Shown here piece by piece: positions 4,107-27,335 of a stretch of 44,868 nt of DNA. The stretch is taken from IMG/VR virus record IMGVR_UViG_3300045988_145891; one strand, written 5' to 3'. Position numbers and translations under genes: made by a program. Position 1 is the stretch's first letter; every line of letters starts with the position of its first letter. The notes under the pieces are model-generated. The model worked only from the letters and a program-made list of their open reading frames with translations. It was not told the DNA's origin and did not search any database. The DNA comes from a virus.

Positions 4107-6089
4107 TTATAGATTTTTAAGTGTATCATTCAATTTATCAACTTCATCAAAACTAAAAGTTCTAGGTTTAGTTTCTACTTTAGGTGTAGATGTAGTTCCT
4201 AAATATTTCTCCATAAATTTTACAACACTCTCTGGAATAGTAGGCTCTTCTAATCTCTCAACTAAACTCAAGTTCATCATTACATTGTTACCATACTGTT
4301 GCTCGAACTCTTCCCAAGTTAGATTAGGGTTGTCTTGTAATAATAACTCGTAAGCTTCGTATTTAGCTTTTTGTTCTGCTTCAACTTGTTTATCATACTT
4401 AAATTTCTCTAATGAATATTCTAAATAATCTTGTTTAACCCCCTCTAGTTCCATAGCATACTGCATTGTAGGTGTGTTAAGTGTCGAAATAACTTCATTA
4501 TTCAATGTTATTAATTTATTTTTTTCAGCTAACCTAAATATCAAATTGTTAAAGTCACTTTCAGTGTATGCAAACTTAGAATGTTGTGAAGTTAATATCC
4601 CTTTTGGGTTAAACGCATCATAAACATCTTTACTCTTATAATATCTTACTCCATCTACATTTAATTCATATTTAAAATCTCCTAAAGGTTGAACTAAAAC
4701 GTTGTAGTTACCTATTCTTGAATTAGATATATATATACTTACATTATCTCCATTTACATCAATAATTCTTTTTCCCGTTAAACCATTTTCGTATTCGAAT
4801 TTAGAATTTGATATATTAATATTAGCACTTGTTTTAATAACCCCCATAGCTGTATTTGCAGGTGCTGGAATAGCACTGAACAATCCTTTATTTGTTGTAG
4901 AATGATAATAAATAATTACATCACTCATAGTTGTCGGTTGATTAGTGTCTATCAAATAACCATCTATTCTCTCAGAAGAAAAGTTATTTATAATGCAATC
5001 TCCGTCGCCTCTTGAGTAAAAGAATGGTGTTGCTATATTTATTGTTCCGTTGTATTTCGATTGAACACCATAGCAATTACTTACAGACCAACCGTTGTTG
5101 TTTTGAGAATGTACAAAAAATCTTCCTGCATCAACGTGACATTGGTCTATAAATATATGGTTAGCACTACCTGTTATTTCCAATCCAGCGGTAAGCTCAT
5201 AAGCTTTATTGTATCCATAACATAAGCAATTACTTATATTACCCCAATCCATTCTACCTAACTTTATGAATGTAGCATTTGTTATTAACCTTTCCATTAA
5301 ATTTGGAGCAGAACTTCCTGTAAGACCTACTATATTAGGGTTTGAGTGTATTCTAGTTATATTATTTGCATCAACACATTTATCAATATGAATAAAAGTT
5401 TTTGTAGCAACCCCAATGACATCATCTATATAACTAGCTAGCAATCCTTTTGTAGCATCTATACCTACACAACACAATCCTAACGAAACTCTTTCTAATT
5501 TACAATACCCACCACTTTCTTTAAAATATACTTGAGCTTCACATTCTACATACTCATCTTTTGGAACACTAGAAAAACCATCATTCTGATAATAAGCCAT
5601 TCTTTTAATAGTTAAGTTTCTACATTTAAATCTATCCCCTACAATGAGTCCTTTACCTAAATGATTTACTGATATACCTAAATCATATATTTGAGTATTA
5701 TACTTTTTAGTTTCCAATTCTGATGAAACAAGGTAGAATTTATTTACATCTCCTCTTATTATATTTATGTAATTTAAAGCCTTTTGTATAGCTTGGGTGT
5801 CGTCTGTTTTGGTGTCTCCTTTAGCTCCAAACCAAGATACATTTACTTCTCCATTGTGTATAATATTAGCCCATTTACCATTATCAATCTGGATACCAGA
5901 ACCATCATCACTGTCAGCAATTATTCTCTTATGATTAGCTCCATCTCCAGCTTGGTAGTAGCCAAGAATTTCTACTACCTTGCCAGATTTTAATTTACTA
6001 TCTTTTTGCATTTCTGCTATTGTATTATATACTTTTGCATTACCACCTAGTAGTCCTATACCAAGTGGTACTGATTTATCTTTAGCCAT
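4107..6089 (-). CDS. Tailspike / depolymerase with pectate-lyase-like right-handed beta-helix, 660 aa
   Basis: N-terminal motif WFGAKGDTKTDDTQAIQKAL (Pectate_lyase_3 / GH28-type signature). Size and position next to the tail fibre. Confidence 0.65.
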   Translation of the reverse strand: MAKDKSVPLGIGLLGGNAKVYNTIAEMQKDSKLKSGKVVEILGYYQAGDGANHKRIIADSDDGSGIQIDNGKWANIIHNGEVNVSWFGAKGDTKTDDTQAIQKALNYINIIRGDVNKFYLVSSELETKKYNTQIYDLGISVNHLGKGLIVGDRFKCRNLTIKRMAYYQNDGFSSVPKDEYVECEAQVYFKESGGYCKLERVSLGLCCVGIDATKGLLASYIDDVIGVATKTFIHIDKCVDANNITRIHSNPNIVGLTGSSAPNLMERLITNATFIKLGRMDWGNISNCLCYGYNKAYELTAGLEITGSANHIFIDQCHVDAGRFFVHSQNNNGWSVSNCYGVQSKYNGTINIATPFFYSRGDGDCIINNFSSERIDGYLIDTNQPTTMSDVIIYYHSTTNKGLFSAIPAPANTAMGVIKTSANINISNSKFEYENGLTGKRIIDVNGDNVSIYISNSRIGNYNVLVQPLGDFKYELNVDGVRYYKSKDVYDAFNPKGILTSQHSKFAYTESDFNNLIFRLAEKNKLITLNNEVISTLNTPTMQYAMELEGVKQDYLEYSLEKFKYDKQVEAEQKAKYEAYELLLQDNPNLTWEEFEQQYGNNVMMNLSLVERLEEPTIPESVVKFMEKYLGTTSTPKVETKPRTFSFDEVDKLNDTLKNL

Positions 6090-9000
6090 TTATATCCTCC
6101 TTAAGAAACTTTCAATTTTATCAACATAATACTTTTTATATCCCTCTTCATTAGGGTGCCAACCATCTGATTGATAAGTATATTTTGCTCTTAAACTAGG
6201 TATGTAGTTTAGTGGTGGACAATCAGAATGTAAGTCAACATATGGTATTCCCCATTTCTTTAACATTTCAATAGATATATCATAGTAACTTTCATCATAA
6301 GTGACACTCATTTTGTGAACTATAATAAATCCTATTTTTTTACCAGCGAAACGTTCAACTGTTTGTTTGCACATAGATTCAAAAGCTCCACAGTATGTTG
6401 TATCATCAAATGATTTATCATATCCATCAGTTATAGTTCCTAACGGGGCTTTAACTCCTCCGTCATTTACACCACCTTCAAGTAATACATAATCTGCATC
6501 TGTATCTAAATCTTGTATAGAACGACAAATCCAAAACCTTTTAGCTCCTGATGAAGAATATTGTTCTGCTGTAATAGTCCCACCACCAACAGCTATATTT
6601 TGATATTTCATATTATTTCTATCAGCTATAATTTTGCCATAACCACCTAAAAATCCAGCACCAGCACAGATGCTATCTCCTGTTAATGCTATTTTTTTAC
6701 CATATAGTATATTTGTAGCCACATCTATATTGTCTTTTAAATCTACATTAGGTATTATTTCTTTATACCCATATGGTACATATTCATCAGAAATATAATT
6801 CAAATAACAAGTATGATTATCTATACGTCCTAAAACTCCATTCAATCTAACCTTAGATATTTTATTATTATGAGGAACTTCATATAGTCCTTTTATCTGT
6901 GTTCCAGTAGTAGGTTCTTCATAGCTTATTCTTTTCAAAGTGCTTATTTTATTACCAGCATCATCATAACAATAACCACCAATAGCCTCTCCGTATTGTG
7001 GCATATATATCTTATCTAAAGATTTAATTGGTATAAAGTTAGTTAAAAAATATCTCGTATGGTCTTTTATATCTCCTACACCATCAACATATACGTTTGG
7101 TGTTATATCGTTTTTATTGAATAAATTTACATACTTTATATTTGTAGAACTGCCTAGTGAATACGATTTTATCTTTTCTTGAGTAATACTATTATCCTTT
7201 ATCATTTGTTTTTCTATTGATTTGACAAACTTTTTCCCGAAAATTAATTCGTTATACTCATAATATGTATTATCAAATTCCCTATTGATAGATATAACTA
7301 TTTCATTCTCTCTTAATGTACGATAATTAACTTTTACATATGATATTGTTTTATCATTAGGAACTCTATATCTACCTTTTGTTTGTTTTATACCCGGTGA
7401 CTCCTCTTCATACCCTTCTCTCACTAAATCTGCAACAAAAACATCATCAGAAGTATAACAAGACCCACCTTTAGGTTCTCCATATAAATTATTTCTGATT
7501 AAATCATTAGGTTGAACTTTTATTTTATGAGAATAAGAATATGCCTCGTCCGTTAAAATCTCACCGCTAGATAAATAACCACCATCAACATTTTCAATTG
7601 AGCCTTTATCAAAATAGTTCCCTATATCTATATCTTCAATTTTTCTTACAGTAACAGCATTATCAGCTATTTTATTTGTTGTAATTGAATTATCTTCAAT
7701 AGTAGGAGATACTGGAGTTTCTCCTGTCATAGCATTTATAACTTCTTCTGATAGATTTATTAATTTAATTTTGTCAGAGTCAGATGATGTTTTGAATTTA
7801 TATGCTGGGATAGAGTTATCTTGTATATCTTGTTCTGATATTTTTTTATTCTTTAATTCTTCTATCTCTTGCATATTTGTATTACTGTTTCCTAAAGCCT
7901 TATTTATAGCATTAACTACATTTTTATCTGTATCGTTAATACCATTTTCAATTTTATTTAATTTTGAGTTATCTAAATCTTCTGCTGTTCCATTATAATT
8001 ACCTTTATCTAATTTTGATTCTTTCAACTCATTGATATCATATTTTGTAGCTAAACCAATTCTTTCTGCTGTATCTAAATCAACAACATCGTAATCTAAA
8101 TCATAACTATCTCCAATATCTATATAAGCAACTTGTTTACCATCTATTTCAGATATATGAGCTAAATATTGGAAAGTTCCTATTTCATTCTTAGTTCTTG
8201 ATAAACCACCATCTACTTCTTGAGATAGGAAATAATACTCATCATAAACAAATGTCTCTCCTTTATCATCTCTTGCTTGTGTAGGTATATTTACTACACC
8301 TCTAGTTACAACGTCAAATCTGTCGTTATCTATCTTAATCGCTATTCCATCAGCACTTGTATATTTATTTGCTTTTACCCATTTTCTTGTAGCTCCATCT
8401 AAAGTAACAGCAGTAAATACAAATCCGTGATTAGCTTGAGTAAATTGCATTGTATCAGTTTGCCCACCTAATTCTTGCCATTCACTCCATACTTCATTTA
8501 TTCTTACAACAAAGAGCATCTTTCCTGTTGTAGTATAATATCTAATTACTTGAGAGTTTCCACCATCAGTAATATCTTTCTTAACAACTCCTGCATTATC
8601 TGATGAGTTTAATTGAGGTGGATAATGAATATAATTTTTATTAAATAAATCTACTACTAACCAGTTACCTAAACCTATCTCAAGCCAGTCACTACCCTCT
8701 GGCATTAAACCTTTATCTGCTACTGCTTGGTCTATCATAGTTTGTAGTCTTTCTTCTAGTTGAGTAGTATAATCATCTAATCTTTGTTTTAAATCAGTTT
8801 CAACATACTCATCTAATTGTCTTTTAACTTCTTCTAGTAACTCTCTTTCAGCTACTTCTAAGTCTTGCTCTAGTAGTTTTAGAACTTCTTGTCTTAACTC
8901 TTGTACTAAGTCATTAAACTTCTCAAATAGGCTATCAACAGGCATAGCAGCCATATTACCGTCTTTATCCATATACCAAGTAGTATATGGTTTTAATTCT

Positions 9001-16768: not shown

Positions 16769-16789
16769 TTTATCAACTCCTTTCTTTCG

Positions 16790-16830
16790 ATTATATCATA
16801 TCACTTATTTTATTAAAAGTTTACATTTTT
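16790..16830 (-). promoter_or_regulatory. Late-operon promoter with extended -10 (AATAAGTGATATGATATAAT on the minus strand)
   Basis: TGnTATGAT / TATAAT about 25 nt upstream of the terS-like RBS. Shares the TAAGTGATAT motif with other promoters in this genome. Confidence 0.5.
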
Positions 16831-17289
16831 TAAATTTTTAGGGTAAAATGACTAGTTTTAAAAGTATCTACTCGGGAATTTTTGACACTTTATTTGAAAA
16901 AATATAGGTTTTTTGAAATTTTGTAAACTTTGAGTTGAGATTTTGGAAATTAGGTTATAGTTGGGGTATGCATAGTCGCCAACGTAGGATTTTCGAGGGT
17001 GGGGGGGTAGTCTGTAATAGATTCAGGAATAAGAGTTAAAACCTCTGGAAAAAATAAATGTTATTCTAAATAATTATTATTAAATACAACAAAATAACCA
17101 TACCGCATATAATAAGTATTATCTTTGGTTTAGTTATTCAAGTAATTATTATCGACAATAATTATTACAGTAGGAGCTTGTAATCGCATGATTATGGGAG
17201 TTTGTGAGATATAAGAGGTATAATGGTATGTGTGAAATATAAATGAATATGTTCTCAATCATAATAAATATCATTCTCTTTCATATAGT

Positions 17290-17445
17290 AATTGTAATAA
17301 TCTACTTTGATATTTATATCTAACTTAATACTGCTAACTATCTTCTGCTATCTACCTACTATTATATCTAACTACTTAACTACTATCTACATATATTGTA
17401 TTACTTACTACTATACTACTATTACTTAGGAGAGCATACAATGTA
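17290..17445. repeat. G-depleted, CTA/TAC-rich low-complexity tract with short direct repeats (tatatctaact x2, ctgcta x2, ctactat xN) inside the ~920-bp non-coding region
   Basis: Almost no G on the plus strand for ~150 nt. Repeated 7-11-mers. Confidence 0.5.
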
Positions 17446-17586
17446 AATCTTATTGCTGCCGCACATTAGTGGAAACAACTATCATTTACAACTTACACCA
17501 GCTTTAAAAAGTATGGAGCTTTTCTTATATAGTGTACTGCCAAATATAAATATTACCAGTTTTTACAAAAAAGTATAAAATTAGTA

Positions 17587-17616
17587 TTGACAAAAAAAGA
17601 TGTTATGTAATATACT
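17587..17616 (+). promoter_or_regulatory. Sigma70-like promoter (TTGACA-N18-TATACT) for the 17690-20081 operon
   Basis: Consensus -35 and near-consensus -10 about 70 nt upstream of the first gene. Confidence 0.45.
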
Positions 17617-17689
17617 TATATCAACAAGAGAGATACAGGAATAGTATTATTACTATTTCAGTACAGATTTATAGGAGAGTGATTTAAAA

Positions 17690-18289: not shown

Positions 18290-18666
18290 TGAAAGAGTAT
18301 ATATTATTCATCAATGATAACTTTACATTCACAGTATACGAGATAGAGCAAGGACACCAATTAAGACAAGTTTATAGTTATGGTGTCCAAAGATTAGAAA
18401 ATCTATATGATGTATATTGGGAGCTGCTAGAATATGATAAAAACATTGTTAAATGTTATTTAGAGAGCGAACATAGATTTATTGACGCAGACTTGTTTAT
18501 ACCTCTTATCTGGGTATATAAACACACTAAAGATGATGAGCAGCAACTATGGAAAAATAAATTCAAAGATAATAAATATATAGCAATACAAAAAGCTGCT
18601 GAGATATACCAAGCTTTTCAAATAGCAGCTGGTGCAGACTTAGTAAGAGAGGAGATGACAGAATGA
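18289..18666 (+). CDS. Hypothetical protein, 125 aa
   Basis: ATGA-coupled to the upstream gene. Confidence 0.4.
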   Translation: MKEYILFINDNFTFTVYEIEQGHQLRQVYSYGVQRLENLYDVYWELLEYDKNIVKCYLESEHRFIDADLFIPLIWVYKHTKDDEQQLWKNKFKDNKYIAIQKAAEIYQAFQIAAGADLVREEMTE

Positions 18667-18752
18667 AACAGTATTTATTTGGTGGAATAGCAGGAGCTGG
18701 AATAGTATTATATTATTGGTTTGGATTTGATTTTATAGCTAATTTGATTTAA
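18663..18752 (+). CDS. Small hydrophobic peptide, 29 aa (MKQYLFGGIAGAGIVLYYWFGFDFIANLI)
   Basis: ATGA overlap with the preceding stop. Single TM-like segment. Confidence 0.3.
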   Translation: MKQYLFGGIAGAGIVLYYWFGFDFIANLI

Positions 18753-18766
18753 TAGGAGAGTGGAGA

Positions 18767-19771
18767 ATGGAAAAAATAATTAAAACAATAAAAGATGGAC
18801 AAGTGTTTTTAAATACTAAAAAACATGGAGTAAATGCTATTATTAATTTGGGTGGCGTTGATCAAGTACAGATATACAATACACTAGAAGCAGATGTATT
18901 TTTACAGACTGATTTAATTAAAAAAGCTTTTAACGTGCTAGATGATGGCGATATAGAAATATTAAAAGACAAAAAATTAACATTTAAGCAAGATAAAATT
19001 AATTTAAAGGTTGAATTTGAAGAGAATAAAAAGAGTATTGAAGAGTTTAAAGCAGAACATGAAATAATAATTGAGCCTGGAGACATTGAAAAAATAATTA
19101 ATCTTAAAAAAGATATAAAACCAGATGCTGATGCTGTTAAGTATGTTTACATTTCAGATGCTGGAATTGCTGCAACTGATTCTTATAGACTTGGAGTTTA
19201 TAACTCTAATATCTCAAACATTGATACTTGGTTTATGATCCCTTATGCAGTGATAGACTTTTTAGAACTTACAAAAAATAAAATCAAAGTACTAAAGAAA
19301 GAACACAATTACATGTTAGAACTTGGTAGAGGTATAAAAATAACTTGGAAAAATTTTTATACACATTATCCAGACGTTAGAAATGTAATTAAATTCGGAG
19401 ATACTATGGAATGGAACGCAACCTTAAACAGAAAAGAGCTTGAAAAAGTATTGAAAAAAGCTGTTAAAATATCAGTGGATAACACAGAGAATAAAAATAG
19501 TACTCTATGGACTATCAAAAAATATTCTAACATCTTAGAAATTTACGCAGCTAATAAAAAAATGGATATTACACAGGAATTAAAAATTGAAGCTGAACAC
19601 GATTTAAAAATATCACTTAATGGTCCAAATATATTAGATTACTTAAAAAGAGTTAAAAAAGATGATGTTAATTTCAAATTCATAGGATCTAATTCAATGA
19701 TAGTATTTGAAAATGATGATTATAAATATTATTGCATGCCATTAGCTTGGAGAGATAAAGATGATAAATAA
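18767..19771 (+). CDS. DnaN-like DNA polymerase sliding clamp (beta subunit homolog), 334 aa
   Basis: Motif IAATDSYRLGV matches DnaN ATDSHRLA. Downstream IPYAVIDFLELTK resembles DnaN VIPGKSLTELSK. YPD motif. C-terminal MPLAWRD resembles the clamp C-terminus. Confidence 0.55.
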   Translation: MEKIIKTIKDGQVFLNTKKHGVNAIINLGGVDQVQIYNTLEADVFLQTDLIKKAFNVLDDGDIEILKDKKLTFKQDKINLKVEFEENKKSIEEFKAEHEIIIEPGDIEKIINLKKDIKPDADAVKYVYISDAGIAATDSYRLGVYNSNISNIDTWFMIPYAVIDFLELTKNKIKVLKKEHNYMLELGRGIKITWKNFYTHYPDVRNVIKFGDTMEWNATLNRKELEKVLKKAVKISVDNTENKNSTLWTIKKYSNILEIYAANKKMDITQELKIEAEHDLKISLNGPNILDYLKRVKKDDVNFKFIGSNSMIVFENDDYKYYCMPLAWRDKDDK

Positions 19772-20081
19772 AAATAGCAAAGATTATATAACAACCTTAG
19801 AAACATATTTAAAAAGATTGGCTGGAGATAATCCAGCCTTTACTATACTAACTCAATTCAAGTCTAGCAGCTACTACGGTAGAAAAAATAAAATAGGACC
19901 AGCTGCAGCCTTTAAAGAGTTTTTACAAGCTGGAGAGATTCCAGGATTACCCATCACAGATGAGCAACTAACAACTTTCTTTAAAAATATTATGTTAGCA
20001 AGTCCAGGAGAACTGGAGAGAATGAAAAACAAGTTTAATACTTATTCAAACATCATTTATAGATTTATTAGGGAGTCTTAA
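19761..20081 (+). CDS. Hypothetical protein, 106 aa
   Basis: ORF overlapping the clamp gene end. Confidence 0.4.
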   Translation: MINKNSKDYITTLETYLKRLAGDNPAFTILTQFKSSSYYGRKNKIGPAAAFKEFLQAGEIPGLPITDEQLTTFFKNIMLASPGELERMKNKFNTYSNIIYRFIRES

Positions 20082-20098
20082 AAGACTCTCTTTTTTTT
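20072..20098 (+). terminator. Rho-independent terminator (GAGTCTT-aa-AAGACTC + T8) overlapping the stop codon of the 106-aa gene
   Basis: 7-bp stem followed by TTTTTTTT. Confidence 0.65.
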
Positions 20099-20434
20099 AT
20101 TCCTGGAATAATACCAAGTCCAGCAGATGCCACCATCTTATTTTTAATTTTATGAGCTAATAACACTATTTAACTATTACACCATATCTTTATTTATATA
20201 TCTGACCTCGTAAAATACCTCTAAAAAGCTTTCTAAAACATTTTAGGTATAAATAATAGACTAGATATTTTTAAATTTTTTAGACATAAATTAAAGCTTG
20301 ATATAAAATAATTATTATTTTTAAATTATTTTTTATTTTTTACTACTCCAGGAGCTGCAGGAGCAAAGAGAACCCCCCAACCCATCAGTTTTTTTTAAAA
20401 CAGCTCCGTTAATAAAAGGACTGGCAAATTTACC

Positions 20435-20593
20435 TAATAAAAGAGAAAAACCCCACGATTAAGTGAGGTTTTGTGAGAGATAAAATTTAATTTTGTAGTA
20501 GATACCTTAATAAGTTATCAGTGGATATTAAATTATTAGGAATCTTAAAATAATCCTGCCTTTTTATTGAGAGACATAACTCATAATTAATAT
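20435..20593 (-). ncRNA. Putative ~160-nt small RNA bounded by a sigma70-like promoter and a rho-independent terminator, in the 550-bp intergenic region
   Basis: The promoter at 20601-20629 points into a region with only a 6-codon ORF. Minus-strand hairpin AACCUCAC-uuaauc-GUGGGGUU followed by UUUUUCUCUUUUAUU at about 20433-20472. Confidence 0.4.
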
Positions 20594-20600
20594 AATATTA

Positions 20601-20629
20601 TTTTACCTTCTTTGTTAATAAAAGTCAAT
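20601..20629 (-). promoter_or_regulatory. Promoter A (minus): TTGACT-N17-TAAAAT; its -35 and spacer are a 19-nt copy of promoter B (TTGACTTTTATTAACAAAG)
   Basis: Sequence identity with the promoter upstream of the Erf gene. Lies 3' of the 155-aa gene stop and is directed into the intergenic region. Confidence 0.45.
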
Positions 20630-20631
20630 TT

Positions 20632-21099
20632 TTATTTTTTCAAAACATATTCTAGCAAGTAATCAACAGTTGAAATTTTACCTTCTAATTTAGATTTTAG
20701 CCATGTGTTAGTTATTAATTTATATTCTATTTCAGCTTCTTCAAACATAGTTTTTACTTTTTCTTGAAAGCCTATGTGTTTACCATAAAAATCTACCACA
20801 GTTGGTATTTCAAAATCATCTACAAATATTCTAAAAATTCCTTTTTTTTCAACTAAACTTACTGTATATTCATACTTAGGACTAAACACAATTGTTTTAG
20901 ATTCTACATAGAAGTATATACCTTCTTTTTCAATAACTCCTTCACTTCTTAATTTGAAATTTGAGTCACTTAAATCAAATTTTTTAAAACATTTTAAACA
21001 AAGCTCAATGCTTTTTTCATATAACTTTTGATTTAATTTATCTATTTCTGAATTACTTTCACAAAATTTTTCTTTTATCATTTTTAATTTTTCTTCCAT
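20632..21099 (-). CDS. Hypothetical protein, 155 aa (starts MEEK with the same 30-bp leader/RBS as the Erf gene)
   Basis: ORF with RBS AGGAGTGATAG. Confidence 0.45.
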   Translation of the reverse strand: MEEKLKMIKEKFCESNSEIDKLNQKLYEKSIELCLKCFKKFDLSDSNFKLRSEGVIEKEGIYFYVESKTIVFSPKYEYTVSLVEKKGIFRIFVDDFEIPTVVDFYGKHIGFQEKVKTMFEEAEIEYKLITNTWLKSKLEGKISTVDYLLEYVLKK

Positions 21100-21154
21100 T
21101 TTCTATCACTCCTATATTTATAACAAATCTTCATAAATCATTAAAAGTCAAGCG

Positions 21155-21402: not shown

Positions 21403-22071
21403 CTACTTATTTAAGTTATCATATAAAGTTTTTAAATGCTTGTCTGATAGTTTTTCTATCGGTGTATCTTCTGGTAACTTAAAGAATTTTAATACATTCT
21501 CATAATATCCAGCTTGTTTATTTTGTAATTTGATAGGTATTTCTTTTAACATAACCTGTCTATCTAGTTCTTCCACATTTTTCTCAATAGGTTTTTCTTT
21601 TTTCTTAGATTGCTTAGGCTCTGGTGTATCATCTTCTGGTTTTCTATTTGGATTGTCTATATCATCTTCATCAGTCTTGATATGGAAATACTTAAGTAAG
21701 AAATATCTCTCTGCATATGTTAAGATACTACCTACACCTTTCTCCCAGTCATTCATACCACTAGCAGCAAATCTATTCTCATCTTTTTCCCCTGTTTCAA
21801 CATCTACCCAAGTGAATAGTAACTCTGCTGTATATAGTATTTCTGATTTTTCACTATTCTTAGACTTATAATCTATTCTCTCGTGAGTTAGGTTAATAAT
21901 CTCTTGCTTTAATATCAATCCTACTTCATTCATAATAGGTTTAATATTATCCAACACCTTAGCTCCTGTTACATAATCATAATTGAAGCTTTTTTGATTT
22001 TTACCAAGTCCTACTACTCTTTTTTGGACTTCTAGTAGTTTTTGATAAATATTAAGTTTTTTTTCTTCCAT
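21403..22071 (-). CDS. erf: Erf-family single-strand annealing recombinase, 222 aa
   Basis: GKNQKSFNYDYVTGAKVLDNIKP and ASGMNDWEKGVGSILTYAERYFLLKYFHI resemble P22 Erf (NQYNSFGKYKYRS...; GATSSYARKYCLNGLFGI). Confidence 0.6.
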   Translation of the reverse strand: MEEKKLNIYQKLLEVQKRVVGLGKNQKSFNYDYVTGAKVLDNIKPIMNEVGLILKQEIINLTHERIDYKSKNSEKSEILYTAELLFTWVDVETGEKDENRFAASGMNDWEKGVGSILTYAERYFLLKYFHIKTDEDDIDNPNRKPEDDTPEPKQSKKKEKPIEKNVEELDRQVMLKEIPIKLQNKQAGYYENVLKFFKLPEDTPIEKLSDKHLKTLYDNLNK

Positions 22072-22106: not shown

Positions 22107-22135
22107 ATTATATCACTTTTGTTAATAAAAGTCAA
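22107..22135 (-). promoter_or_regulatory. Promoter B (minus): TTGACT-N17-TGaTATAAT extended -10, directly after a terminator, driving the Erf operon
   Basis: Consensus elements with the TSS about 20 nt upstream of the Erf RBS. Confidence 0.6.
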
Positions 22136-22161: not shown

Positions 22162-22437
22162 CTATTCAAAACATTCTTCTGTTACTACATCATAGTTTTC
22201 TGATGTTGAGCATGGTGTTCCTATTTCTCCGTGAGCTTTTAAAGTATCATAATGTATTCTGCAACTTAATATTTCAGCATATTTTCTCATATAACTTTTT
22301 TGTAAATGTAAATTAATTCTCTGCTCTTCATCAGTGAATTTAGGTTCTTTAGTTTCTTTCTTAAGGAAAATTTCTAATTTTTCTATTTTTTCCTCTAATT
22401 CTTGTAGTTCAACTTCCATTCTTTTAATATGTTCCAT
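22162..22437 (-). CDS. Hypothetical coiled-coil protein, 91 aa
   Basis: ORF whose RBS overlaps the stop of the upstream small gene. Confidence 0.4.
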   Translation of the reverse strand: MEHIKRMEVELQELEEKIEKLEIFLKKETKEPKFTDEEQRINLHLQKSYMRKYAEILSCRIHYDTLKAHGEIGTPCSTSENYDVVTEECFE

Positions 22438-27306: not shown

Positions 27307-27335
27307 ATCATATCACTTTTAGTAATAAATGTCAA
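27307..27335 (-). promoter_or_regulatory. Early-left promoter: TTGACA-N17-TGaTATGAT, overlapping the imperfect palindrome GTGATATTATCATATCAC (operator-like)
   Basis: Consensus -35 and extended -10. Inverted repeat TGATAT-tatc-ATATCA spans the -10. Confidence 0.6.

What the first reader, a model, noticed from the sequence alone, without database searches (positions are those of the whole stretch)
20435..20629. Promoter- and terminator-bounded ~160-nt transcript with no ORF: putative phage sRNA
A minus-strand promoter (TTGACT-N17-TAAAAT, 20601-20629) has a -35 and spacer that are a verbatim 19-nt copy of the Erf-operon promoter. It fires into a 550-bp intergenic region whose only ORF is 6 codons. 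About 150 nt downstream lies a minus-strand intrinsic terminator (AACCUCAC-uuaauc-GUGGGGUU + U-rich, about 20433-20472). Upstream of it, at 20340-20400, is an unusual GC-rich island (ggagctgcaggagcaaagagaaccccccaacccatcag) flanked by the inverted repeat GGAGCTG/CAGCTCC.
Basis: seen in the sequence. Interest (0 to 1): 0.55.

Follow-up and report, generated by a model that had tools for sequence, protein, structure and literature searches.

The report
Conserved ORF-less phage small RNA gene
At the end of the recombination (Erf) operon of an uncultured, probably Fusobacterium-infecting 45-kb phage lies a ~150-nt unit with its own promoter and terminator and no conserved reading frame; relatives down to 60% protein identity keep it, so it is probably a new phage small RNA, though its expression and target are untested.

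Summary
A minus-strand promoter-like site (TTGACT-N17-TAAAAT, 20628..20600) lies ~150 nt upstream of a minus-strand intrinsic terminator (stem-loop 20472..20447 plus U-tract). The promoter shares 18 exact bases with the Erf promoter, not 19.

Ten relatives from public assemblies all keep the unit:
- -35 TTG and -10 TAnAAT are invariant, and the -35 begins within a few bases of the preceding stop codon.
- A 5' motif AAUUAYGAGUUAKG is invariant.
- Most carry a long central hairpin whose sequence differs between lineages.
- The terminator keeps pairing through three compensatory changes.
- No ORF is conserved.

In some relatives an antirepressor-like gene sits just 3' of the terminator. It has its own promoter, so the unit is not a leader.

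Best reading (about 0.5): a small RNA made from its own early-type promoter and also as the 3' end of the Erf/Sak operon mRNA. It most resembles lambda PreS/LPR1 and 3'-end-associated sRNAs in layout. Expression, target and mechanism are untested. It matches no Rfam family and was not found in three large collections.

Main rival: only an operon terminator, with a promoter copy left by module shuffling.

The GC island is a separate variable 9-nt repeat tract and is not coding.

New member of a known kind; moderate interest.

The parts
20623..20628 (-). -35 hexamer TTGACT of the sRNA promoter
   Evidence: Found. TTG is invariant in all 6 aligned lineages. The hexamer starts within a few bases of the stop codon of the preceding gene in the window, L007, L008, L009 and L010.
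20600..20605 (-). -10 hexamer TAAAAT (TATAAT in L009, L019 and L007; TACAAT in L008)
   Evidence: The pattern TA.AAT and the 17-nt spacing are invariant, although the spacer sequence differs in L007 and L008.
20611..20628 (-). 18-nt block TTGACTTTTATTAACAAA shared with the Erf promoter (22118-22135): the signature of a promoter family
   Evidence: The same block heads the Erf/Sak promoter and the sRNA promoter in L009, L010 and L016. A variant, TTTACTTTTATTAATGAACGTGGTATAAT, heads the Ant-like cassette.
20437..20594 (-). Predicted primary transcript, about 150-158 nt, starting about 6-7 nt after the -10 and ending in the U-tract
   Evidence: It matches covariance model R1 at 183.6 bits, and this is the only copy in the window. 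It reaches no Rfam gathering threshold, and the best sub-threshold match has E = 0.15.
20575..20588 (-). Invariant 5' motif AAUUAUGAGUUAUG (family consensus AAUUAYGAGUUAKG)
   Evidence: Alignment A5. It is the longest block kept between the window group and L007/L008.
20568..20583 (-). Small 5' hairpin H1 (UGAG-8 nt-CUCA)
   Evidence: U-A becomes C-G in L007 and L008, and one G-C becomes G-U.
20500..20545 (-). Long central hairpin H2 (AGAUUCCUAAUAA... / ...UUAUUAAGGUAUCU)
   Evidence: L007 and L008 have a long hairpin of different sequence at the same place. In L010 it is replaced by a shorter segment, and the partial copies in L013 and L014 carry the same replacement sequence.
20473..20482 (-). 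Unpaired CU-rich stretch UAUCUCUCAC just 5' of the terminator (UAUCUC kept in L007 and L008): candidate seed
   Evidence: The seed role is an inference only.
20447..20472 (-). Terminator stem-loop AAAACCUCAC-UUAAUC-GUGGGGUUUU
   Evidence: Three pairs keep pairing through changes on both sides. The U-G wobble becomes a C-A mismatch on the + strand, and L007 and L008 have a U-tract only on the minus strand. The hairpin is therefore oriented for the minus strand.
20437..20446 (-). U-rich tract UCUCUUUUAU after the stem
22107..22135 (-). Erf-operon promoter TTGACT-N17-TATAAT with TG extension: the sister promoter
20632..21099 (-). 155-aa ORFan gene, the last gene of the Erf operon in this genome. 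It is an insertion between the 79-aa gene and the sRNA promoter.
   Evidence: It is absent in L009, L010, L016, L018, L019, L007 and L008. It is bounded by TTGACTTTTA repeats. It reuses the Erf ribosome-binding site and the first four codons MEEK. It has no homologues other than itself.

Best explanation
This is a gene for a structured, non-coding small RNA of about 150 nt, carried by a family of ~45-kb phages that probably infect Fusobacterium.

How it is made. RNA polymerase starts at a sigma-70-type promoter of the same family that drives the Erf/Sak recombination operon, so the RNA should appear with the early leftward genes. Transcription stops at an intrinsic terminator. No terminator separates the last operon gene from this promoter. 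The same hairpin therefore also ends the operon mRNA, and the RNA sequence is also the operon's 3' untranslated end.

What it looks like. The RNA folds into a small 5' hairpin, a long central hairpin and the terminator.

What it probably does. The parts kept in every allele are the 5' 34 nt and the unpaired CU-rich stretch UAUCUCUCAC before the terminator. These are the likely working surfaces. The most probable action is base pairing in trans with host mRNAs, or less likely phage mRNAs, possibly at purine-rich ribosome-binding regions.

Shown: the conserved promoter geometry, the terminator covariation, the absence of a conserved ORF, and one copy per genome.

Inferred: that the RNA is transcribed, that it acts in trans, and what it targets.
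For: 1. The promoter and terminator are present and correctly oriented.
2. In six lineages, including L007 and L008 (clamp 60% and 67% identical), -35 TTG, -10 TA.AAT and the 17-nt spacing are invariant, although the spacer sequence diverges.
3. The terminator keeps pairing through three double-sided changes, and the 5' hairpin through one.
4. Model R1, built only from close relatives, finds one full-length match in L007 (E = 2.8e-5) and one in L008 (E = 1.5e-4), and only one copy in the window. On the model-fitted alignment, 95.5% of cells pair, against 41-53% when the partners are slid by 1-3 columns.
5. Each lineage folds into the same three-hairpin layout. Folding z-scores range from -1.4 to -1.9 for the full-length window-type copies (about -1.9 for the window), -2.5 for the short L010 allele, -3.9 in L008 and -4.5 in L007.
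6. The unit keeps its place under three different upstream neighbours: the 155-aa gene, the 79-aa gene and a divergent 78-aa gene. It also keeps its place under three downstream contexts: none, a 254-aa Ant-like gene and a 237-aa ANT gene.
7. The downstream Ant-like genes start from their own promoter placed after the terminator.
8. No ORF is shared. The ATG of the 6-codon ORF is ACG in L007 and L008.
9. The antisense + strand promoter-like site at 20567-20596 is not kept in L007 or L008 (read).
Against: - There are no expression data of any kind.
- Within the window-type group the unit is almost invariant, so all covariation rests on two distant sequences and on an alignment fitted to the model.
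- Between the two groups the unit is less similar (55-61% nt) than the neighbouring genes (68-77%).
- L010 lacks the central hairpin, and the partial copies in L013 and L014 carry the same replacement sequence. That part is therefore dispensable.
- The window's own fold is only marginally better than shuffles (z = -1.86).
- No target was found. Pairing with the translation-initiation regions of the phage's own genes is no better than for shuffled RNA. No complementarity longer than 13 nt exists in the genome.
- The promoter block is also a recombination junction in these genomes, so a copy could persist without being needed.
Confidence: 0.5

Rival explanations
1. The element is only the Erf/Sak operon's terminator with its 3' untranslated region. 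The promoter copy is a passive by-product of cassette shuffling. These genomes swap and insert gene cassettes at TTGACTTTTATTAAC-type junctions, and this could be an empty cassette (promoter plus terminator) with no function as an RNA.
For: - No terminator lies between the last operon gene and the unit, so the hairpin must terminate the operon.
- The same promoter block bounds the 155-aa insertion.
- The same block heads the Ant-like cassette inserted next door.
- The centre of the unit is deleted or replaced in L010, and the partial copies in L013 and L014 carry the same replacement sequence.
- Sequence identity to L007 and L008 is lower than in the flanking genes.
Against: - A relic promoter should decay. 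Instead, -35, -10 and spacing are intact in every lineage, and the -10 is even closer to consensus in L009, L019 and L007.
- The truncated copy at 21142-21151 shows what decay looks like: no -10 at a usable distance.
- The 5' motif directly after the predicted start is invariant.
- The unit keeps a length of roughly 135-150 nt in the distant relatives and a comparable hairpin layout.
Confidence: 0.27
2. The element is a cis-acting leader or attenuator. Its promoter and terminator gate expression of whatever lies downstream on the minus strand by regulated read-through. Candidates are the Ant-like cassette in some relatives and the repeat-bearing spacer in this genome. The model is the promoter-proximal terminated transcript of lambda (6S RNA at pR'/tR').
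For: - The layout promoter, ~130-nt structured leader, terminator is that of an attenuator.
- In L009, L016, L014 and L019 a gene on the same strand follows within about 120 nt.
- Lambda 6S RNA is such a terminated transcript (bioRxiv 10.1101/2024.10.31.621285).
Against: - The downstream gene has its own extended -10 promoter (GTGGTATAAT) between the terminator and its ribosome-binding site.
- The window, L010, L013 and L018 have no downstream gene at all.
- By eye I found no upstream segment that could pair with the 5' arm of the terminator to form an antiterminator. This was not tested systematically.
- No riboswitch or leader family matches.
Confidence: 0.08
3. The region encodes a small protein or a type I toxin-antitoxin pair. 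Candidates are the 19-aa peptide MGWGVLFAPAAPGVVKNKK (20385..20326) in the GC island, or the micro-ORFs inside the transcript. The RNA would act as its mRNA leader or antisense partner.
For: - The 19-codon ORF has A/T-rich third codon positions and a hydrophobic N-terminus with a basic tail.
- A + strand promoter-like block faces it.
Against: - The ATG is out of frame in L009 and L019, and the frame is broken in L010 by an 11-nt length difference.
- The tract is pyrimidine-rich, so it is open in all three frames by composition alone.
- The 32-aa ORF is stopped in L009.
- The 6-codon ORF loses its ATG in L007 and L008.
Confidence: 0.03
4. The conserved features act at the DNA level, as binding sites for a phage or host protein, a replication or recombination site, or an attachment site. 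RNA output would be irrelevant.
For: - The motif CTTTTATTAAY recurs four times on the minus strand within 1.8 kb: three exact copies (0.5 expected) and a near copy, CTTTTATTAGG, right after the terminator.
- A promoter-less copy, GTCCTTTTATTAACGGAGC, is conserved even in L007 and L008.
- The neighbouring spacer has AT-rich DNA flanked by variable repeats.
Against: - The compensatory changes in the stem and the strand-specific G-U pair argue for selection on RNA.
- No integrase was found among the 40 ORFs of the window scanned against Pfam, and there is no tRNA, so an attachment site is unlikely.
- The site lies between convergent operons, which is not typical of an origin.
Confidence: 0.07

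Closest known systems
Lambda LPR1/PreS sRNA (bioRxiv 10.1101/2024.10.31.621285)
   Same: Both are phage-encoded sRNAs inside the early leftward transcription unit. Lambda's unit, from my own knowledge, also carries the recombination genes. In both, the 3' end is one of the operon's intrinsic terminators (tL2a in lambda), and both would be expressed with early lytic genes.
   Different: - I ran no sequence comparison with lambda.
- PreS is ~88 nt (processed to ~68 nt), binds Hfq and targets host dnaN. The present RNA is ~150 nt and its target is unknown.
- Fusobacteria are reported to lack the known sRNA chaperones (PMC9438474).
- The present unit has a recognisable promoter of its own. I did not check whether PreS has one.
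sRNAs associated with mRNA 3' ends that have their own promoter and share the operon terminator (examples from memory: DapZ, MicL; review PMC9438474)
   Same: The promoter sits at the end of the last coding sequence of an operon. The transcript shares the operon's Rho-independent terminator. It is therefore produced both independently and as the mRNA's 3' end.
   Different: In the classical cases the promoter lies inside the upstream coding sequence. Here it starts within a few bases after the stop codon. The known examples are chromosomal and Hfq-dependent.
Classical intergenic sRNA gene (definition quoted in PMC9438474: primary transcript of 100-200 nt, own promoter, Rho-independent terminator, conserved, in an intergenic region)
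   Same: All of the sequence-level criteria are met.
   Different: The expression criterion is untested. The unit abuts the upstream gene and is not reasonably spaced from it.
Antisense or leader RNAs that control phage antirepressor genes (P22 sar, P1/P7 c4; from my own knowledge)
   Same: In four relatives an antirepressor-like gene lies directly downstream of the unit.
   Different: The unit is kept in genomes without that gene. It is not antisense to it, and that gene has its own promoter. No complementarity to it was tested beyond the window.
Lambda 6S RNA (short terminated transcript from pR' to tR')
   Same: Both are short RNAs of ~150-190 nt bounded by a promoter and an intrinsic terminator in a phage.
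   Different: Lambda 6S is the un-antiterminated start of the late operon. Here no operon follows, and the late genes lie elsewhere, on the far side of a convergent gene block.

Membership tests
Any described RNA family (Rfam 15) | Score at or above the family's gathering threshold | tested here: not met
   There were 0 matches over the whole window. With relaxed thresholds on 20050-20680, the best match has E = 0.15 (PsrR1, 21 bits against a gathering score of 42). All weak matches align essentially to the terminator.
Independent bacterial/phage sRNA gene | Own promoter | tested here: met
   The sigma-70-like site at 20628..20600 has hexamers and spacing conserved in six lineages. This is sequence evidence only, and activity was not tested.
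Independent bacterial/phage sRNA gene | Rho-independent terminator at the 3' end | tested here: met
   The stem has three compensatory pairs, and the U-tract is on the minus strand only in the distant relatives.
Independent bacterial/phage sRNA gene | No conserved open reading frame | tested here: met
   The only ATG ORFs are 6 and 10 codons, and the ATG of the 6-codon ORF is lost in L007 and L008.
Independent bacterial/phage sRNA gene | A discrete stable transcript is detected | not testable with these tools
   No transcriptome data are available here.
Independent bacterial/phage sRNA gene | Conserved secondary structure with covariation | tested here: inconclusive
   The terminator and the 5' hairpin covary. 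The central hairpin is present in three lineages with different sequences, but the alignment there is model-fitted, and one allele lacks the hairpin.
3'-end-associated sRNA with its own promoter | Promoter at the end of the last gene of an operon, with the operon terminator shared | tested here: met
   The -35 starts within a few bases after the stop codon in the window, L007, L008, L009 and L010, and no terminator intervenes.
Trans-acting base-pairing sRNA | A conserved seed with a complementary, conserved target site | tested here: inconclusive
   Candidate seeds exist (5' motif, UAUCUCUCAC). Pairing with phage translation-initiation regions is not better than for shuffles. No host genome was available.
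Type I toxin-antitoxin | A conserved small hydrophobic ORF overlapped by, or paired with, an antisense RNA | tested here: not met
   The 19-aa and 32-aa ORFs are disrupted in L009, L010 and L019.
Riboswitch or transcription-attenuation leader | A regulated gene downstream in the same transcription unit, and an alternative antiterminator fold | tested here: not met
   The window, L010, L013 and L018 have no downstream gene. Where one exists, it has its own promoter after the terminator. The antiterminator fold was judged by eye only.
Phage attachment site (attP) or tRNA fragment, considered for the GC island | An integrase gene, and identity to a host tRNA or gene end | tested here: not met
   No integrase was found in the 40 ORFs of the window scanned against Pfam. 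There is no tRNA or tmRNA. The island was absent from IMG/VR. It was not searched in bacterial genomes.

The most novel reading that the evidence does not exclude
The unit and the conserved 350-bp spacer behind it may work as one system. Read-through of the sRNA terminator, or of the neighbouring cassette's terminator, would give a longer minus-strand RNA carrying a variable number of CUCCU repeats. These repeats resemble the anti-Shine-Dalgarno sequence. There are 2 units here, about 7 in L009 and 0-1 in L010. Such an RNA could mask ribosome-binding sites broadly, or be opposed by a + strand AGGAG-repeat RNA made from the Fnu1-like promoter block. That would be a phage RNA that tunes translation initiation globally, with strength set by repeat number.
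Probability: 0.04. Interest if true: 0.75.

Novelty: new member of a known kind. Interest (0 to 1): 0.4.

Why it matters
Phage-encoded small RNAs are well documented mainly for E. coli phages and prophages (PMC12197685; bioRxiv 10.1101/2024.10.31.621285). My limited literature searches found none for phages of Fusobacteria. That phylum includes a cancer-associated species, is reported to lack the known sRNA chaperones, and has limited genetic tools (PMC9438474).

If real, this RNA would be a conserved, easily testable early-expressed phage sRNA in that setting. It comes with natural alleles: a long form, a short form lacking the central hairpin, and two divergent homologues. Together these already delimit the likely functional parts.

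The locus also shows how promoter-plus-terminator cassettes are stacked and exchanged at a shared promoter sequence in these genomes.

Tried and rejected
- Known RNA families: Rfam at gathering and relaxed thresholds gave nothing beyond terminator look-alikes. No tRNA or tmRNA was found.
- Relatives of the two flanking ORFans in IMG/VR: none. The 155-aa protein has no homologue other than itself among 5.8 billion proteins.
- An alignment of the 79-aa neighbour found no locus in JGI metagenomes, IMG/VR or 185,579 species genomes.
- The sRNA core as a DNA pattern found nothing in the same three collections. The GC island found nothing in IMG/VR.
- BLAST of the spacer against plasmids, and of the L007 spacer against phages: no match. 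Model R1 finds nothing in Fusobacterium phage FNU4 or in the 5-kb Fnu1 locus.
- Coding readings of the GC island: rejected for the minus-strand 19-aa and 15-aa frames. Also rejected for a + strand Gly-X-Y-like frame, which has no start codon. Start codons and frames are inconsistent across relatives, and the tract is open in all frames by composition.
- The 32-aa minus-strand ORF (20166..20068): stopped in L009.
- Attachment site: no integrase found.
- Leader of the Ant-like gene: rejected because that gene has its own promoter.
- Target search within the phage: no extended complementarity. Duplex energies with 55 translation-initiation regions are within the range of shuffled controls. GAGAGAUA occurs at two ribosome-binding sites (the genes at 19761 and 25623), but that is what an SD-like word would do by chance.
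- Repeat search between this spacer and the other large spacer (16769-17689): only chance-level matches.

Full report
**Setting**

The window is 44,868 bp and 30% GC. It looks like a complete phage genome.
- It carries a T7-type portal, a gp14-like internal virion protein and a large terminase.
- It carries a replisome organiser and a DnaB helicase, a sliding clamp, and an Erf single-strand annealing protein.
- No integrase was found in the 40 ORFs scanned against Pfam.

The only DNA similarity to sequenced phages near the finding is a 105-nt stretch shared with Fusobacterium phages Fnu1, FNU2 and FNU3. The portal's best relatives are Fusobacterium phages phiBB and FNU4, at 29% identity. The host is therefore probably a Fusobacterium or a relative.

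The finding lies in a 550-bp spacer (20082-20631) between two converging gene blocks.
- The + strand block ends with the clamp (18767-19771), a 106-aa gene (19761-20081) and its own terminator (20070-20091).
- The minus-strand early block starts at a promoter near 27335 and includes a second promoter in front of Erf (22135..22107).
- It ends with Erf, a 79-aa gene and a 155-aa gene (20632-21099).

**The observation**

On the minus strand the promoter-like site reads TTGACT-N17-TAAAAT (20628..20600). The hairpin AAAACCUCAC-UUAAUC-GUGGGGUUUU lies at 20472..20447 and is followed by UCUCUUUUAU. The distance gives an RNA of about 150 nt.

The first 18 bases of the promoter equal the Erf promoter, and the 19th differs.

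Consensus matches are not informative in this AT-rich DNA: 51 promoter-like sites were found against 45 expected. The case rests on comparison with relatives.

The transcript has only 6- and 10-codon ATG ORFs.

**Relatives**

The 155-aa gene is an ORFan. Contigs carrying it are about 99% identical in the spacer and give no information.

Clamp homologues at 91-60% identity and 79-aa homologues led to ten further loci from Logan and ENA assemblies.

All loci that cover the site contain the unit.

- **Promoter.** Across window, L009, L016, L010, L007 and L008, the -35 TTG, the -10 TA.AAT and the 17-nt spacing are invariant. The spacer sequence differs completely in L007 and L008. The -35 begins within a few bases of the stop codon of whichever gene precedes it.
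- **5' motif.** The motif AAUUAYGAGUUAKG, a few bases after the predicted start, is invariant.
- **Terminator.** Its stem changes from AACCUCAC/GUGGGGUU to GCCCCGC/GUGGGGC (L007) and GGUCCGC/GUGGACC (L008). That gives three pairs with changes on both sides.
- **Strand.** In the window the stem contains a U-G pair, which would be a C-A mismatch on the + strand. In L007 and L008 only the minus strand has a U-tract.
- **Covariance model.** A model built from five close relatives finds one full-length copy in each genome. It finds L007 at E = 2.8e-5 and L008 at E = 1.5e-4, and no second copy in the window.
- **Pair counts.** On the model-fitted alignment, 95.5% of cells pair, against 41-53% with slid partners. 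That alignment leans towards the model and includes two chance hits. I give it limited weight.
- **Fold.** Each lineage folds on its own into a small 5' hairpin, a long central hairpin and the terminator. Folding z-scores are -1.4 to -1.9 for the full-length window-type copies, -2.5 for L010, -3.9 for L008 and -4.5 for L007.
- **Short allele.** The central hairpin has a different sequence in each group. In L010 a shorter segment replaces it, and the partial copies in L013 and L014 carry the same replacement sequence. The constant parts are therefore the 5' 34 nt and the last ~50 nt, including the unpaired UAUCUCUCAC.

**What it is not**

It is not a leader.
- In L009 and L016 a 254-aa gene follows the terminator on the same strand. 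In L014 and L019 a 237-aa ANT-domain gene follows instead, and the two share their N-terminus.
- That gene has its own promoter, TTTACTTTTATTAATGAACGTGGTATAAT, between the terminator and its ribosome-binding site, and its own terminator.
- The window, L010, L013 and L018 have no such gene.

It is not a small-protein gene.

It matches no Rfam family.

It is not antisense to anything else in the genome.

**What else the comparison shows**

The promoter block TTGACTTTTATTAAC is a family signature. It heads the Erf or Sak gene, the sRNA unit and, in a variant form, the Ant-like cassette.

It is also a junction for gene insertion.
- In the window the 155-aa gene sits between two TTGACTTTTA copies (21151 and 20628).
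- That gene starts with a copy of the Erf ribosome-binding site and the codons MEEK.
- In relatives without that gene, the 79-aa gene is followed directly by the sRNA promoter.

This gives the main rival: the promoter copy might persist as a recombination linker and not as a working promoter. Three points count against it.
- The truncated copy at 21151 has no -10 at a usable distance, whereas the copy at 20628 and all its homologues are intact.
- In L007 and L008 the promoter has a different spacer sequence but the same geometry.
- The transcribed 5' motif is invariant.

**Mechanism**

I commit to a small RNA made early, both from its own promoter and as the 3' end of the recombination-operon mRNA. 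It would act by base pairing through one or both conserved unpaired segments.

This is inference. The search for targets among 55 phage translation-initiation regions gave best energies of -18.1 and -16.1 kcal/mol. The best values for shuffled RNA averaged -15.4 +/- 2.0 and -15.0 +/- 2.3. No host genome was available.

The closest described case is lambda LPR1/PreS. It is an sRNA whose 3' end is terminator tL2a of the early-left operon, it is made in the lytic cycle, and it acts on host dnaN (bioRxiv 10.1101/2024.10.31.621285). The likeness is architectural only.

Fusobacteria have about two dozen known sRNAs and are reported to lack the known chaperones (PMC9438474). Any mechanism here would therefore be chaperone-independent or use an unknown protein.

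**The GC island**

The island (20348-20390, 61% GC) lies outside the RNA, 3' of the terminator.
- It is a tract of 9-nt repeats, GCUNCUCCU on the minus strand and AGGAGNAGC on the + strand.
- There are 2 units here, about 7 in L009 and 0-1 in L010 and L014.
- Every coding reading fails in some relative.
- The inverted repeat GGAGCTG/CAGCTCC is real but is not kept in L010.

The rest of the spacer is as conserved as the flanking genes. It contains the block shared with Fnu1, where that block is the promoter region of a gene. Its function is unexplained.

**Verdict**

- Confidence that this is a functional small RNA: about 0.5.
- Confidence that it is only a terminator with a passenger promoter: about 0.27.

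It is a new member of a known kind and of moderate interest.

Noticed in passing
window 20348-20390; L009 about 6150-6260; L010 about 5560-5600: The GC island is a variable-number 9-nt repeat, pyrimidine-rich on the minus strand (GCUNCUCCU, like an anti-Shine-Dalgarno sequence) and AGGAG-rich on the + strand. It has 2 units in the window, about 7 in L009 and 0-1 in L010 and L014. It is preceded by a G-run and ends in the conserved palindrome CTCCTGGAG. It is not coding, and its function is unknown.
   Followed up: partly
window 20105-20135; L009 about 5870-5920: A second GC-rich spot lies just inside the + strand terminator. In L009 it is expanded by three 15-nt units (GGGCATCTAAAGG...). The 32-codon minus-strand ORF across it is not conserved.
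   Followed up: partly
window 20225-20336; L001 (Fnu1) 2501-2610: This + strand block is the best conserved part of the spacer. It holds a -10-like TATAAAT and the palindrome CTAAAA-CA-TTTTAG. It is 75% identical over 105 nt to the intergenic promoter and 5' UTR in front of gene 107 of Fusobacterium phage Fnu1, and to FNU2 and FNU3. In the window no + strand gene follows it.
   Followed up: partly
window 20400-20420, 20433-20445, 20614-20624, 22121-22131: The motif CTTTTATTAAY occurs four times on the minus strand within 1.8 kb: three exact copies (0.5 expected by chance) and a near copy, CTTTTATTAGG. Two copies are promoter spacers. One, GTCCTTTTATTAACGGAGC, has no -10 yet is conserved even in L007 and L008. 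It may be a protein-binding site or a recombination linker.
   Followed up: partly
window 20632-21151: The 155-aa ORFan gene is an insertion bounded by direct repeats of TTGACTTTTA. Its ribosome-binding site and first four codons (MEEK) copy those of Erf. Relatives without it join the 79-aa gene directly to the sRNA promoter.
   Followed up: yes
L009 6297-7061, L016 5868-6632, L014 5690-6403, L019 3549-4262: The spot just 3' of the sRNA terminator is an insertion hot spot. Relatives carry there a 254-aa or a 237-aa (PF03374 ANT) antirepressor-like gene with a shared N-terminus, its own promoter of the same family and its own terminator.
   Followed up: yes
window 21403-22071 compared with L002, L003, L009, L010: The annealing protein differs between otherwise near-identical genomes. 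It is Erf (PF04404) in the window, L004, L016, L018 and L019, and Sak (PF06378) in L002, L003, L009 and L010. Both sit behind the same promoter.
   Followed up: no
window 22162-22437; L007 7021-7338: A PF21825 gene (crAss001_48 / Sequestin) lies just upstream of the Erf promoter. L007 has a Tad2-like gene (PF11195) beside its PF21825 homologue. This may be a small anti-defence cluster.
   Followed up: no
equivalents of window 20190-20525 in L005, L006, L012, L013, L014, L017: Many assembled contigs of relatives end inside this spacer at different positions. This fits assembly breaks caused by repeats and strain variation, not a fixed genome end.
   Followed up: no
window 16769-17689: A second large non-coding spacer of 920 bp lies between the packaging and late genes and the + strand block. 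In L007 the corresponding spacer holds an 81-nt stretch 77% identical to window 20304-20384, the AT-rich DNA plus part of the island.
   Followed up: no
window 18663-18752: A 29-codon ORF (MKQYLFGGIAGAGIVLYYWFGFDFIANLI) is called as a 29-residue product at the same position in most relatives. It is probably a real small membrane protein.
   Followed up: no
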